Shown here: in pieces, positions 50,601 through 56,600 of the stretch | How positions within the stretch are numbered: the stretch's first letter is position 1 | How the letters are laid out: each line of letters opens with the position of its first letter | NCBI GenBank assembly: GCA_964036045.1 | Contig: OZ038379.1 | Span: 9,114,001-9,178,000 of the forward strand | Source: Eutreptiella sp. 'Long Island Sound 2002' | Lineage: Eukaryota; Protista; Euglenida | DNA: 64,000 bases | Direction of reading: 5' to 3' | Notes under the pieces: model-generated | What the model was told of the DNA's origin: nothing | Databases searched by the model: none | The model's input: the letters and a program-made list of their open reading frames with translations, nothing else | Program-made: the position numbers and the translations under genes

Positions 50601-53600
50601 TGCCGGTTATTCCGTCCTGAGTCACGCCCCCCCCCCCCCCCCTCCCGAACTTGTATACATTCCACACTTAATGGTTGGCTGGATGGCGGCTCAGCAATGG
50701 GCCAGCACGGCAGATATGACGCCCACGACACCCAAATCAATATCGTACGCCAGTGAAGTGTTGACAAACGTTATCTTGTATTTCATTCCGTAACACCGAT
50801 GCTTTTTGTACAAACCACCTAGCTGATCGAAACCGAAGGACTGATGTTGTCCATCACCTGCTATATGAGGCGCAACATCGGGATCCTGGATGCCGTTGGT
50901 ACGGAACATGCAGACGGATACATTGGCCGCAGTTGTGAGAAGCATATCTTGGCAGTACTTCATGGTTGTCATGTACTGATCAGGGATCGGGCTTGTTTGA
51001 GATACCACGCGACTCGGTCCAGGTTGACGGCGTCTGACACGATAATTCCTAGCGCTCCTACGTGCACAATAAGTAGCACGACGTTTTTGGCGGTGAGACC
51101 TCTGCTTGTACGTTCTCGGCATGTTGGTAGATTTATGGGTCCAATCCTGTTTTATATATATATATATATATATATATCCTCCAATCTACACCCCTCTCCC
51201 AACTCTAGGTGGCTCCACCACACGGCTCTAAGGTACGTGCGAAGGGCACAAAGTGGTGCATACATGTGGTGGAAGGGGCTCAACTCGGTCAAAACGGGCT
51301 CAAAACGGGCTAAAAACACTTGTTTGAGCATCCCAAATGGTCCGGGATCACTTTTGGAAAAACGCGTTTTTGACTCATTTTTGACCCATTTTTGGTCCCA
51401 AAATGGCCCATTTTCAAGGCATTTTGGGAGTTTCAATGAGCCAAAACCAGTCGCCACGGGCTCAAAATGGGCTAAAACCACTTGTTTGAGCATCATAAAT
51501 GGTCCGGGATCATTTTTGGAAAAACGCGTTTTTGACCCATTTTTGACCCATTGTTGGTCCCAAAACGGCCGATTTTCAAGGCGTTTTGGGATTTTCCATG
51601 GCCCAAAACGCGCCACCACGGGCTCAAAACGGCCTAAAAACACTTGTTTGAGCATCCCAAGTGGTCTGGGAACAACTTTGGAAAAAATGATTTTTTTCGC
51701 CCCGGGGACCCTGGTGGACCCACCGTTGGCCCCCACTGTGCGTGGGCTGGCCGGCCCTCCGGCTGCACCAAGTGACCATTGGTACGGGGGTCTACGCGTC
51801 TCGTTGGGCGATTCTGAGGCTTGGAAACCACAAAAAGTGGGGGGTTGCGGGTGGACTAGGTGCCCTCGGAATTCGTTTTTGAGCCACGTAGCCCAAGATA
51901 CGGCCCGTTCTTGGTTTCGGGGTGTTGGTGCACATTGCGCAGCTTTTGGGGCTTTTTGGCGCCTTTTTGGGCCGTTTCTCGGACATATCGTGGAGTTAGA
52001 GGGCACCAAAGGGCCCTTGGTTACGAGAAAGTCAAGCCGCACGTGCAGTGTAGCAGCTGTTTGCCTTCGTTTGGCTGTTTTGAACCCTTACTAGGGCTGT
52101 TTTGGGCGAAAAATGGCTGTTTTTGGCCCAAAACTGCGCAGATTTGGGAGGGCACCTACCGACTTGGCGCCCACGCCCCGGGCTGCCACTGGTGAGTTTT
52201 TGGCTCAAAACTTGGATTTGGCAAGGCCACCACCACCTAGGCTCTAGGATGGCTAAAGTAGAGTCAAGCCCGAGGCGATGGGAAGGTGCAATGGCCAAAA
52301 CGGCAAGGAGACGTGTTGTTGCTTGTTGCTTGTTAGCTAAATTTAAGGGGAGAGGGGTGTAGTAATATATATATATATATATATATATATATATATATAT
52401 ATATATATATATATATCCTCCAATCTACACCCCTCTCCCCAACTCTAGGTGGCTCCACCATCCGGCTCTAAGGCACGTGCGAAAGGTACAACGTGGTGCA
52501 TACATGTGGCGGAAGGGGCTAAACTCCATCAAAACAGGCTCCAAATGGTCTCAAAACACTTGTTTGTGCACCCCCAATGGTTCAGGGTCACTTTTGGAAA
52601 AACGCGTTTTTGACCCATTTTTGACCCATTTTTGACCTAGTTTGGTCCCAAACCGGTCCCTTTTCAACGGATATTGGGATTTTCCATGGGCCAAAACCCA
52701 TCTGAATGGGCTCAAAATGGGCTAAAAACACTTGCTTGAGCATCCCAAATGGTCCAGGATCACTTTTGGAAAAACGCGTTTTTGACCCATTTGGGACCCA
52801 TTTTTGGTCCCAAAACGACCCATATTATAATTCTTGAATAATTCAAGGCATTTTGGGATTTTCCATGGGCCAAAACGCGGCACCACGGGCTCAAAATGGG
52901 TCAAAACCACTTGTTTGAGCATCCCAAATGGTCCTGGATCACTTTTGGAAAAACACGTTTTTCACCCATTTTTGACCCATTTTTGGTTCCAAAACGGCCC
53001 GTTTTCAAGGCATTTTGGGATTTTCCGTGGCCCAAAACGCGCCACCACGGGCTCAAAACGGCCTAAAAACACTTGTTTCAGCATCCCAAGTGGTCTAGGA
53101 ACAACTTTGGAAAAAATGATTTTTTTCGCCCCGGGGACCCTGGTGGACCCAGCGTTGGCCCCCACCGTGCGCGGGCTTGCCTGCCCTCCGGCTCCACCAA
53201 GTGACCACTGGTACGGGGGTCTAGGTGGCTCGTTGGGCGATTCTGAGGCTTGGAAACCACAAAAAGTGGGGGGTTGCGGGTGGACTAGGTGCCCTCGGAA
53301 TTCGTTTTTGAGCCACGTAGCCCAAAATACGCCCCGTGCTTGGTTTCGGGGTGTTGGTGCGCATTGCGCAGGTTTTTGGGGCTTTTTGGCGCCTTTTTGG
53401 GCCGTTTCTCGGACATATCGTGGAGTTGAAGGGCACTAGAGAGCTCTTTGACACGGTGAAGTCAAGCCGCACGTGGAGTGTAATCACCGTTTCCCTTCGT
53501 TTGGGCGTTTCGCCCGGGTTTTGGGGCTGTTTTGGGCGAAAAATGGCTGTTTTTGGCCCAAAAGTGCGCAGATTGGGGAGGGCACCTCCTAACTTGGCGC

Positions 53601-56600
53601 CACCGCCCCGGGCCGCCACCGGTGAGTTTGTGGCTCAAAACTTGGATTTGGCAAGGCCACCACCTAGGCTCTAGGATGGCTAGAGTAGAGTAGAGCCCGA
53701 AGCGATGAGGCTGAGCAATGGCCAAAACGGAAAGGAGAAGTGCTTGCTTGCTTGCTTGTTGCTTGCTTGTTAGCTAGATTTAAGGGGAGAGGGGTGTAGT
53801 AATATATATATGGCACAACGCGTCTACGGCCCCATCCCCCCCCAGGGCCCCACTGGCCGGGGTTGGGTTGGGGTTAGGGACCCTCCCCCCCTATTTTTGG
53901 GTCGGGACACGCAAAAAAATAGGTTTTACGGTGATTGGAGACGGTGGTGGGTCGCTATGACACTTCAAAGTTGCTAAAAATAGGTAGTTCTTACCGAGTG
54001 ACATCATCCCCCAAAATAGCCCCAAAATCCTAAAAATAGCCCTCTCTACGTAACAAAAACCACCAACACCCCAAACCATTGCCGTTAATGCCTTCCATGG
54101 GATCCATTCATCACCCTTTTGCCTCACTAGGGGCAAGAGAAGGGCCACCTTCACCCTATCATACCATTTTTTGGGCCAACCTTGCATATTTGAGGCTATT
54201 TTGGGGGATGATGTCACTCGGTAAGAACTACCTATTTTTAGCAACTTTGAAGTGTCATAGCGGCCCCCCACCGTCTCCAATCACTCTAATTCATATTTTT
54301 TTGAACTTCTCGACCCCAAAATAGGGGGGGGAGGTCCTTGGTCCCAACCAAACCCTCCCCGGTGGGGCCGTAGGAGGGGGGGGGGCCGTAGACGCGTTAT
54401 GCCATATATATATATATATATATATATATATATATATATATATATATATATATATATATATATATATATATATATATATACAAACAAATTTTTCGTTATT
54501 AATACAATTTTTGCTCTGAAGGTCCCAGTATTACCCTTCAGAGCACTTTTAGAGTGTTTCCCGGCCATCCATGAAGACTACCTTGAAACGCCTCAAGAGC
54601 TGTTGTATGGAGTCTTCGTGTTTAAGTTTGTCATACAGCTCTTTTGGATGCAAGCTCGAGGTTACTATGATCTTTTTAGCCAGGAAAGGCACAGGTTCTC
54701 GATTGCGTTGCTTCACGGTATGCGGCTATTTGTCTCACAACTGCAGCATCTCGCTGTAGTTGATTTGGCCGCGGAAGTCGTTGAGGATGACGATTTCATG
54801 CCCGGTATACCCATCCCACCAGTGGTCGTTGAGGCACTAGACGTAGTTGGTGTCGGGGCTGAAGCTCGCAGTTTGGGGCTTGATTGGAATTGATACTTTG
54901 GCACACACACTGATGGTTCTGCAGCGCAGGAGAGTAGGAATGTTGCACCTCGCAGGTAGAGCATGATTGAATGGATCCCTTGGCACACACATGCACACAC
55001 ACACACACACACACACACACACACACAGGCACGCATGCACATTGCTGCAGTGTGAACAGAGCTGTAGAGTGGTGATGTATCATAGCGAACGCTATTGCGT
55101 TGGTTGAAATCATTGGGCGTCACGCGCGCGTGCGCGCTGCATACACGCATGTACGCACGCCCCGCCCACTGCAGTCATTTTGTCTTATAAATGGTGGGCA
55201 CACATGCCCACGTCGTAGGACCAGAGAACACGTGAATGGGTCAGGCTGCCGCACCCCATCCCACCGGCCTTTATGCACCGTTTCCAGGGCATCGTGGCCG
55301 CTCTGGAGCCCTTCCTGGACTCCGTGGACTTCACCGTCGCCCTGGGCAACGAGCCGCTGGCGCCGTGGTACAGCGGCCAACACACGGCGGAGATTGTCCC
55401 CGCGATCACAAGCCTGCGCCAGGCCATCTTGGCGGCGCGGCACATGGCGAAGATCCGCGTGACGGTGCCGTTCTGGTTCGGGGTGATCGAGACCTCGTAC
55501 CCCCCGAAAGACGGCGCCTTCGGGGCCGCCTACGCCCCGACCGTCCTCGCGGCCGCCCGGCTGCTGCGGGACGACCGCAGTTTCTTCTGCATCAACGTCT
55601 ACTCCTTCTTTGCGCACAGGTCCCGCTGCCGCCGCTCGTGTTGTACATGTGAAGAGGAGCAGCGCTGCGGATCTCTGCGGACTCTCTCAGAGAGCACTAG
55701 CCCTGGGAGTGGGGTGGGCGTCCCCGCAGTGAATGCCTTTGAAGAACCCCCCCATCCCCACCCCCGACCAACACACATTCAGGAGGAAAATTTCGGGCAG
55801 GGACGATTTTGTGGGAAACTTTTGTCATACAAGGGAGGTGGCGCAGTTTCCCCCGCCCGAAAATTCAAAGACGGCGCCAGTCGGTATGTGCCATCCGTTC
55901 CTTGCAATGCTGCACACGAGGTACCGCAAATTGCTTGTGGTCCAAGTGTTGCAGGCGTTGATGTCGTGTTGTTTTGACACCAGTTTCCGCCTTTTCATTA
56001 GCACATCCTTCTTGCCGGAGAGAACACGGGCATGCTCGTCAATGGCAGTTTGAGCTTTGGGGTTTGCAGGGGGTTGGGATTTCCCCCGCCCGAATTTTGT
56101 TTTTTACTCTGCGAAACAATCCCTGTACAAAATCTCCGCCGTGTCGCGGAAGGCGGGTCCACGGCCACACAGAGTTTTTGAAATATCTGAGGTGCATGTG
56201 GTTGCCTTCCTCTCGCTGCACACGGCTCTCCCTCGTTATGGAGCAGGCCACAGGCCGCAGGTCGTGCTGCTGGTGCTGCAGGGTTCTTGTGTTTGTGGAT
56301 TTCCGGCTGTCAGCGTTCCTGTAGAAGCTCCCGCACACGGGGTCAGGGCACGACGGTGGTCGATGTCCTCCATCGCGCAGTACTCCATGGGGTTGGCGTC
56401 GGGGGTTTGGGGCATGGGGTTGCGTAACAAGCCCCTTCATCCTGCGGGTTGCCAGTACTCGGGATGCGCTGGACCTTCCTAACCACAGGACACAACGTCA
56501 CATTGTGTACGCACCCGCTTTCAGGTGCACGTCGGCGAGCGTCCCCCTCCCGTGGGGCAGGGTGAGAGGGGAGGCCGACTTCCCACAACCCTGCAACCAG

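What the first reader, a model, noticed from the sequence alone, without database searches (positions are those of the whole stretch)
50691..54866. Endogenous CRESS-DNA virus (Rep - origin - Cap) inside intron 4 of a probable euglenid gene, split by 3.3 kb of MITEs
Seen: a capsid-like ORF (50691-51122, minus), a Rep SF3-helicase C-terminus with three stops that the ORF track misses (54549-54866, minus), and a perfect stem-loop with CAGTATTAC 3 nt beyond the Rep stop. Removing the TA tracts and elements at 51153-54480 leaves a contiguous segment: Rep stop - stem-loop - TATA-like motif - 30 nt - Cap ATG, with an intergenic region of roughly 100 nt. Both genes are unisense and antisense to the nonamer strand. 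Established: Rep, a NANTATTAC stem-loop and a capsid define Cressdnaviricota, and endogenous copies are used to assign hosts to orphan CRESS lineages. Inference: this records germline integration of an ssDNA virus infecting this protist lineage. I know of no described CRESS family with euglenid hosts, so it could link an environmental CRESS clade to a host.
Basis: partly seen in the sequence, partly recalled or inferred. Interest (0 to 1): 0.95.

Follow-up and report, generated by a model that had tools for sequence, protein, structure and literature searches.

The report
Fossil ssDNA virus in euglenid intron
Broken pieces of a small DNA virus (part of its replication gene, its replication origin and half of its capsid gene) sit inside an intron of a likely euglenid alga-like protist, which would make euglenids a likely host for a large group of aquatic viruses whose hosts are unknown.

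Summary
Confirmed, with corrections. The window holds a decayed CRESS-DNA virus fragment: the helicase third of Rep (54549-~54866, minus strand, three stops), an 11-bp stem-loop with CAGTATTAC 3 nt past the Rep stop, and the first 133 codons of a jelly-roll capsid gene (51122-50724). A 3.3-kb stack of TA-flanked repeats separates them; only one of the three is a classical MITE. Everything lies in a 9,037-bp GT-AG intron whose flanking GH17 exons join in frame, and contigs of public runs bridge both virus-host junctions. The closest Rep (84%, intact) and the closest Cap (64%) both lie on a 483,596-bp contig, and another Cap (70%) on a 13.3-kb one, which suggests repeated integration. The Rep falls in a large aquatic clade that I could not assign to an ICTV family. 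The layout is odd: 55 of 56 classifiable relatives carry Cap on the nonamer strand, this element does not, so a rearranged or composite origin stays open. The host is likely euglenid (best hit of a neighbouring gene is Rhabdomonas costata). Endogenous CRESS copies are a known kind; a euglenozoan host was not found in my searches.

The parts
50724..51122 (-). 5' half of a CRESS capsid gene (133 codons, Arg-rich N-terminus, truncated; reading frame runs on to a stop at 50691 in flanking DNA)
   Evidence: relative P0057 folds as a jelly roll matching CRESS and circovirus capsids
51123..51152 (-). 30-nt leader between the TA tract and the Cap ATG
   Evidence: sequence
51153..51177 (.). (TA)n tract, likely the expanded insertion target
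51178..52364 (.). Element A1: high-copy non-coding repeat, 16-bp subterminal inverted repeat, internal 162-bp tandem repeats
   Evidence: summed contig depth about 1e5-1e6 in run X1
52365..52416 (.). (TA)26 tract
52417..53803 (.). Element A2: second copy of the same family, 84-88% identical to A1
53812..54403 (.). Element B: MITE with 225-bp terminal inverted repeats (86% complementary), flanked by TA
54404..54480 (.). (TA)38 tract
54481..54511 (-). AT-rich viral spacer between stem-loop and TA tract
54512..54545 (+). Rolling-circle origin: 11-bp stem, loop with CAGTATTAC (54526-54534), antisense to both genes
   Evidence: 94% over 36 nt to origins of related viral contigs
54549..54866 (-). 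3' third of Rep (SF3 helicase from just after Walker A to the stop), three in-frame stops; a Walker A remnant may extend to about 54881 (inferred)
46016..46250 (+). Host GH17 exon upstream of the intron (GT donor at 46251)
   Evidence: below the Pfam threshold on its own
55288..55620 (+). Host GH17 exon downstream of the intron (AG acceptor, joins the upstream exon in frame)

Best explanation
This is a broken piece of a CRESS-DNA virus (Rep end, origin, capsid start) lying in an intron of a likely euglenid gene, likely inserted once by non-homologous integration of a linear genome fragment and later split by host TA-targeting repeats. Shown: viral homology of both genes, the origin, the host intron, bridged junctions, decay. 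Inferred: the double-stranded replicative form of a virus that replicated in the host nucleus was captured at a DNA break; about 0.85 kb centred on the origin was kept, both genes were cut off (Rep lost its endonuclease and Walker A, Cap its second half); the intron position made it harmless; three repeats then entered the TATA-like tract in front of Cap. It cannot replicate or make virions on its own. Its value is as a host record for the aquatic Rep clade around P0003, P0004, P0006 and P0007.
For: 44 Rep relatives at 50-84% identity, 43 of them on contigs of 4.1 kb or less; nested in a 142-row clade of viral and metagenome Reps, SH-aLRT 99, sister to P0003, SH-aLRT 91, inside an 8-row group, 93 (quick tree). 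Cap family folds as a CRESS jelly roll. Origin matches relatives' origins in sequence, and the nonamer lies antisense at the Rep 3' end as in 31 of 56 classifiable relatives. Own contig is 1,092,935 bp (P0054). Flanking exons join in frame across a 9,037-bp GT-AG intron. A 2,728-nt contig of run X3 runs from host DNA through Cap without mismatch, and a 248-nt contig of run X2 spans 54741-54981. Depth in X1: Cap 26.8, Rep 38-45, host exon 31.7. Decay: three stops in Rep; Cap breaks 6 of 26 conserved columns against a median of 2. Cap and Rep have the same GC, 0.496 and 0.499, against 0.68 for the neighbouring exon. P0003 (Rep) and P0055 (Cap) both sit on a contig of 483,596 bp. Host: best full-length hits of the LRR gene at 6584-7465 are EukProt RCo052027 (40%) and PhM_4 (34%), sharing its C-terminal motif; RCo ids belong to Rhabdomonas costata (PMC8219788, passages); a gag-YR-RT element at 20.8-24.7 kb has the VIPER/TATE gene order (PMC6681497, passages).
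Against: Cap lies on the strand opposite the nonamer; 55 of 56 classifiable relatives have it on the nonamer strand. The 14 closest full genomes listed first are ambisense with longer capsids of other types, and only 9 of 160 loci with this Rep carry this Cap type, 8 of them opposite to Rep. No run contig spans the 3.3-kb insert. Runs X3 and X4 show no cover of Rep and X4 none of Cap (the tool says holes prove nothing). All four runs come from one study that may be the source of the assembly. Host identity rests on one gene at 40% identity; that the 483,596-bp and 13,300-bp contigs are eukaryotic, or of the same organism, is inferred from length only.
Confidence: 0.72

Rival explanations
1. 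Composite or rearranged insert: the Rep-origin piece comes from an ordinary ambisense virus, and the Cap piece was inverted or came from a second virus, joined at the TA tract during integration or by the repeats. Still an endogenous virus, but the layout is not that of a real genome.
For: Cap opposite the nonamer in only 1 of 56 relatives; the origin and its Rep-side flank resemble ambisense relatives L084, L082, L002; the break between the pieces is exactly where three repeats sit; Rep has three stops and Cap none (P about 0.09).
Against: Spacer of 98 nt plus TA is within the 30-159 nt of the 7 unisense relatives with the origin there; L112 has the same layout; equal GC; the same Rep and Cap types share a 483,596-bp contig length; a CGAAAATTT-like motif after the origin points to Cap, seen before 3 of 15 unisense Caps, 1 of 30 ambisense post-origin regions, 4 of 490 random windows (motif chosen after the fact, weak).
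Confidence: 0.15
2. Real integration but not a true host: DNA of a virus of prey, symbionts or the surrounding water was taken up and captured by chance.
For: Nearest short-contig relatives come from environmental collections; many euglenids feed by phagotrophy (recalled); no infection is shown.
Against: At least three related pieces on long contigs form the closest group to each other (P0003 sister to the window; the three Caps share an insertion absent from the other 28 rows of alignment A2 at full length), which chance capture from a diverse pool would not favour.
Confidence: 0.09
3. Assembly chimera or contaminant joined to host DNA at repeats.
For: Microsatellites and high-copy repeats surround the pieces; no contig spans the whole stretch.
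Against: Both outer junctions are bridged by contigs built from reads; premature stops and host repeats inside a viral spacer are not features of a contaminating virion; flanking exons join in frame.
Confidence: 0.03
4. Plasmid or cellular SF3 helicase fragment with an unrelated ORF.
For: One plasmid Rep matches the intact relative at 30%.
Against: Viral Reps match at 50-84%, the Cap family is a viral jelly roll, Atlas neighbours are mostly Cressdnaviricota.
Confidence: 0.01

Closest known systems
Cressdnavirus endogenous viral elements used for host assignment (Naryaviridae, Nenyaviridae, Vilyaviridae, Kirkoviridae, pecoviruses, Draupnirviridae, Oomyviridae)
   Same: Rep and Cap remnants with stops, paired in a host chromosome, read as a host record (PMC9615429, PMC10193959, PMC13499601; passages).
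   Different: Host is likely euglenid; the hosts named in those passages are amoebae, diplomonads, parabasalids, Blastocystis, oomycetes, SAR, animals. The origin stem-loop is intact here.
Unclassified aquatic CRESS viruses with WWDGY...NDFRG...REPVPFLA Reps (loci L002-L212, proteins P0004-P0053)
   Same: Rep helicase 50-78% identical; same origin sequence type at the Rep 3' end, nonamer antisense to Rep.
   Different: Mostly ambisense with 280-360-aa capsids of other types; this element is unisense with a ~230-aa type capsid opposite the nonamer.
Circoviridae
   Same: Capsid family folds like PCV2, bat circovirus and BFDV capsids; NANTATTAC origin.
   Different: 8-15% capsid identity; unisense; origin at the Rep 3' end; circoviruses are ambisense with the origin between the 5' ends (recalled).
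Giant endogenous viral elements of Euglena gracilis
   Same: Eroded viral DNA invaded by transposable elements in a euglenid genome (PMC12455990, abstract start and passages).
   Different: Those are Nucleocytoviricota; that text has no occurrence of 'CRESS' or 'ssDNA'.

Membership tests
Cressdnaviricota | Rep with C-terminal SF3 helicase | tested here: met
   PF00910 on the fragment; profile match E 8e-56
Cressdnaviricota | Rep with N-terminal HUH endonuclease | tested here: inconclusive
   Absent from the window (search with --max); present in the sister protein P0003, PF02407
Cressdnaviricota | Single jelly-roll capsid protein | tested here: met
   Shown on the full-length relative P0057 (48-50% identical): pLDDT 86, TM 0.8 to CRESS capsids; the window's own half gene was not folded alone
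Cressdnaviricota | Stem-loop origin with nonanucleotide | tested here: met
Cressdnaviricota | Circular ssDNA genome in virions | not testable with these tools
   Only an integrated fragment is present; many relatives have terminal repeats
Class Arfiviricetes | Circo/nano-type Rep (Viral_Rep) rather than gemini-type | tested here: inconclusive
   P0003 hits PF02407 and not Gemini_AL1; no tree with named class references was possible
Any named ICTV cressdnavirus family or CRESSV1-39 lineage | Monophyly of Rep with family exemplars | not testable with these tools
   No named reference set; top BFVD Rep matches (44%, 40%, 37%) are unnamed or 'uncultured virus'
Circoviridae | Ambisense genome, origin between the 5' ends of Rep and Cap (definition recalled) | tested here: not met
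   Both genes on one strand, origin at the Rep 3' end
Bacterial pCRESS plasmids | Plasmid Rep as nearest relative, no capsid | tested here: not met
   1 plasmid hit among 72,556 records, 30%; capsid present
Endogenous viral element | Viral sequence joined to host DNA in reads | tested here: met
   Contigs of X3 and X2 bridge the two outer junctions; one study only
Endogenous viral element | Decay and single-copy-like depth | tested here: met
Endogenous viral element | Empty or orthologous site in other strains or species | not tested
   No genome is held and no related organism was laid on the locus
Euglenida (host) | Phylogenetic placement by marker genes | tested here: inconclusive
   Best-hit evidence from one gene and retroelement gene order; no marker-gene tree
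MITE (element B) | Short, non-coding, long terminal inverted repeats, TA flanks, high copy | tested here: met
MITE (elements A1, A2) | Short, with terminal inverted repeats at both ends | tested here: not met
   1.2-1.4 kb, 16-bp inverted repeat set 8-9 nt in from one end, internal tandem repeats

The most novel reading that the evidence does not exclude
Euglenids are the natural hosts of an unclassified, widespread aquatic CRESS-DNA clade: the first ssDNA viruses tied to Euglenozoa, integrated repeatedly (one copy with an intact Rep), with a rare unisense genome whose two genes both lie opposite the origin nonamer; the short-contig P0004 cluster (73-78% Rep identity) would be its living relatives.
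Probability: 0.5. Interest if true: 0.72.

Novelty: new member of a known kind. Interest (0 to 1): 0.58.

Why it matters
Hosts are unknown for a considerable fraction of cressdnavirus families (PMC13499601, passage). This element ties a 142-row clade of aquatic Reps to a candidate host group and names sequences to test (P0003, P0004, P0047-P0049). Four full-text searches found no CRESS virus or CRESS-derived element in a euglenid. It makes 'which small DNA viruses infect euglenids' directly testable by screening assemblies and cultures. The mechanism itself, a fossil virus in an intron, is ordinary.

Tried and rejected
No own genome was held, so no genome-wide copy search. Cap search limited to proteins of 252 aa or more found nothing; the family is ~230 aa and was found. 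Pfam and PDB sequence searches do not recognise the Cap. Scans of viral contigs with Cap queries found no relative; with the Rep fragment alone only one weak hit. No fetched viral genome lies inside the nearest 8-row Rep group, so the layout of the closest relatives is unknown. Family assignment by named structure hits failed. Missing cover of Rep in X3 and X4 is not read as absence. Earlier scan notes: nothing. Supplements of PMC10193959 (2 files) and PMC9615429 (1 file) hold no euglenid terms, but the held files are short and may lack the EVE tables. Zhao, Lavington and Duffy 2021, a eukaryote-wide screen, is not held. Both trees are quick searches; the careful search did not finish.
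Full report
Observation. The minus strand at 54552-54890 translates to a Rep helicase end with three internal stops and hits PF00910. 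Homology to full-length relatives covers 54866-54549, roughly residues 185-290 of 297; no other Rep piece exists in the window. Three bases past the stop is a perfect 11-bp stem with CAGTATTAC in its loop on the plus strand, the only such nonamer in 64 kb; none of 357 chance nonamers in 200 shuffled windows had a stem of 9 bp or more. The ORF at 51122-50691 has 844 relatives among 50%-identity representatives, mostly 220-260 aa; homology stops at 50724, so the gene is cut after 133 codons. A model of the full-length relative P0057 (pLDDT 86) matches CRESS capsids at TM about 0.8 and circovirus capsids in the PDB.

The insert. 51153-54480 holds three TA tracts and three elements. A1 and A2 are 84-88% identical, 1.2-1.4 kb, with a 16-bp inverted repeat near the ends and 162-bp internal tandem repeats; B is a 590-bp MITE with 225-bp arms. 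Summed contig depth over them is 1e4-1e6 against about 30 for the viral and exon parts in run X1 (the tool warns that this is no copy number). Outside the insert the spacer is 68 + 30 nt.

Integration. The window's own Cap fragment is on record on a 1,092,935-bp contig (P0054). The element lies in a 9,037-bp GT-AG intron; the GH17 exons on both sides join in frame, which ties both flanks to one locus. The gene appears to combine CAP, sushi, GH17 and TSP1 domains; four candidate exons precede the intron, without RNA proof. Four runs of one study (two samples) were laid: a 2,728-nt contig of X3 runs from host DNA through Cap, and a 248-nt contig of X2 crosses the Rep-host boundary without mismatch; no contig spans the insert, X3 and X4 do not cover Rep, and these runs may be the source of the assembly. 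Cap breaks 6 of 26 conserved columns (median 2 of the 31 rows) and Rep 3 of 36 (median 1), consistent with neutral decay.

Relatives. The search of longer proteins gave 44 Reps of 69 candidates; the best, P0003 (84%), is an intact 297-aa Rep on a 483,596-bp contig, the other 43 are on contigs of 0.9-4.1 kb. The two best non-self Caps are P0055 (64%, homology ends near residue 120), on a contig of the same 483,596 bp, and P0056 (70%), on 13,300 bp. I infer further endogenous copies; their organism and layout could not be seen. In a 163-row helicase tree the fragment falls in a 142-row clade (SH-aLRT 99); in a 39-row full-length tree it is sister to P0003 (91) within an 8-row group (93) that includes the short-contig P0004 cluster. 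Both are quick trees. Plasmids give one 30% hit; Atlas neighbours are mostly Cressdnaviricota. No family name could be attached.

Layout. Of 97 distinct Reps from fetched loci (distant loci L040-L055 and L057-L080, L001 and duplicates dropped), 56 had both a Cap call (heuristic: Arg/Lys-rich start, 180 aa or more) and an origin call; 41 were incomplete. 44 are ambisense with the nonamer antisense to Rep, 11 unisense with the nonamer on the Rep strand, and 1 (L112) unisense with an antisense nonamer like this element. So the origin position is typical but the Cap strand is rare. This Cap type occurs in 9 of 160 loci with a strong Rep match (duplicates not removed), 8 ambisense and 1 unisense. 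For a native layout: spacer length within the range of unisense relatives, equal GC, the paired P0003/P0055, L112, and a weak post-hoc motif. Against: the 55-of-56 rule, the insert sitting exactly at the join, and stops only in Rep (P about 0.09).

Host. The single-exon LRR gene at 6584-7465 has as best full-length hits EukProt RCo052027 (40%), an unnamed ENA protein, and PhM_4 (34%), which share its C-terminal motif. RCo ids are those of the euglenid Rhabdomonas costata (PMC8219788, passages); that PhM-4 is a kinetoplastid is recalled. A gag-like, recombinase, RT element at 20.8-24.7 kb (recombinase below the Pfam cut-off) has the ORF order given for VIPER and TATE of kinetoplastids (PMC6681497, passages). 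This supports Euglenozoa, likely Euglenida, at about 0.8-0.85.

Mechanism. Shown: what the parts are and where they lie. Inferred: capture of a linear piece of the double-stranded replicative form at a chromosome break, tolerated because it is intronic, then insertion of TA-targeting repeats into the TATA-like tract and point decay. The piece lacks the endonuclease and half the capsid, so it cannot replicate alone. A role of the intact origin or of the open Cap frame is not excluded but has no support.

Literature. Seen as passages: PMC9615429, PMC10193959, PMC11532311, PMC11945456, PMC13499601, PMC12455990, PMC8219788, PMC6681497, PMC8101967, PMC7468197. Seen as search listing only: PMC3198968, PMC7493932, PMC13689118. 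CRESS endogenous elements in protists are established. Searches returned no paper; one search returned 3 and one search listed 15 of 176, none on a CRESS element in a euglenid by title, abstract start or term counts. The 2021 eukaryote-wide screen by Zhao et al. was not held, a 24,764-assembly screen reported only draupnirvirus hits in the passages read, and supplements not held may list euglenozoan hits, so novelty of the host link is probable, not certain.

Verdict. A real endogenous CRESS fragment (about 0.95), likely in a euglenid, of an aquatic clade without a known host. New member of a known kind; interest 0.58.

Noticed in passing
P0003 and P0055 (unnamed ENA contig of 483,596 bp); P0056 (13,300 bp): Likely further endogenous copies; P0003 is a full-length Rep without stops, so a recent insertion or a kept gene is possible.
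   Followed up: partly
window 35450-62000 (+): Host gene appears to fuse a signal peptide, CAP, sushi, GH17 beta-1,3-glucanase and TSP1 domains, an unusual architecture; exon chain not confirmed by RNA.
   Followed up: partly
window 20809-24699 (+): Tyrosine-recombinase retrotransposon with gag-like, recombinase, RT order as in VIPER/TATE, with stops between the frames.
   Followed up: partly
window 51178-52364 and 52417-53803: Very abundant TA-flanked non-coding element with asymmetric subterminal inverted repeats and internal tandem repeats; recalls Helentron-type non-autonomous elements (recalled, untested). Some copies in run X3 join to TTAGGG repeats.
   Followed up: no
window 49301-50182 (+): Fragment of a non-LTR retrotransposon (zf-RVT, below cut-off) next to the Cap-side junction; depth 49.6 in X1, above the neighbouring single-copy level.
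   Followed up: no
window 54770: Contigs of two samples (X1, X2) both break at this base inside Rep, and depth just before it is 45 in X1; an allele or a second close copy is possible.
   Followed up: no
window 46962-48381: Three tandem copies of a 462-bp unit with TACACA microsatellites in the same intron.
   Followed up: no
L112:1-18 and its last 18 bases: The only relative with the same layout has inverted terminal repeats, so its circularity and layout need checking; its Cap type is ambisense in L009, L013 and L097, hinting at Cap inversions in this clade.
   Followed up: partly
L003, just past the origin: A viral contig carries a run of TTTAGGG telomere-like repeats in its intergenic region.
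   Followed up: no
L004, L007: Contigs of 4-7 kb holding two Caps and two different Reps: either chimeric assemblies or tandem genomes.
   Followed up: no
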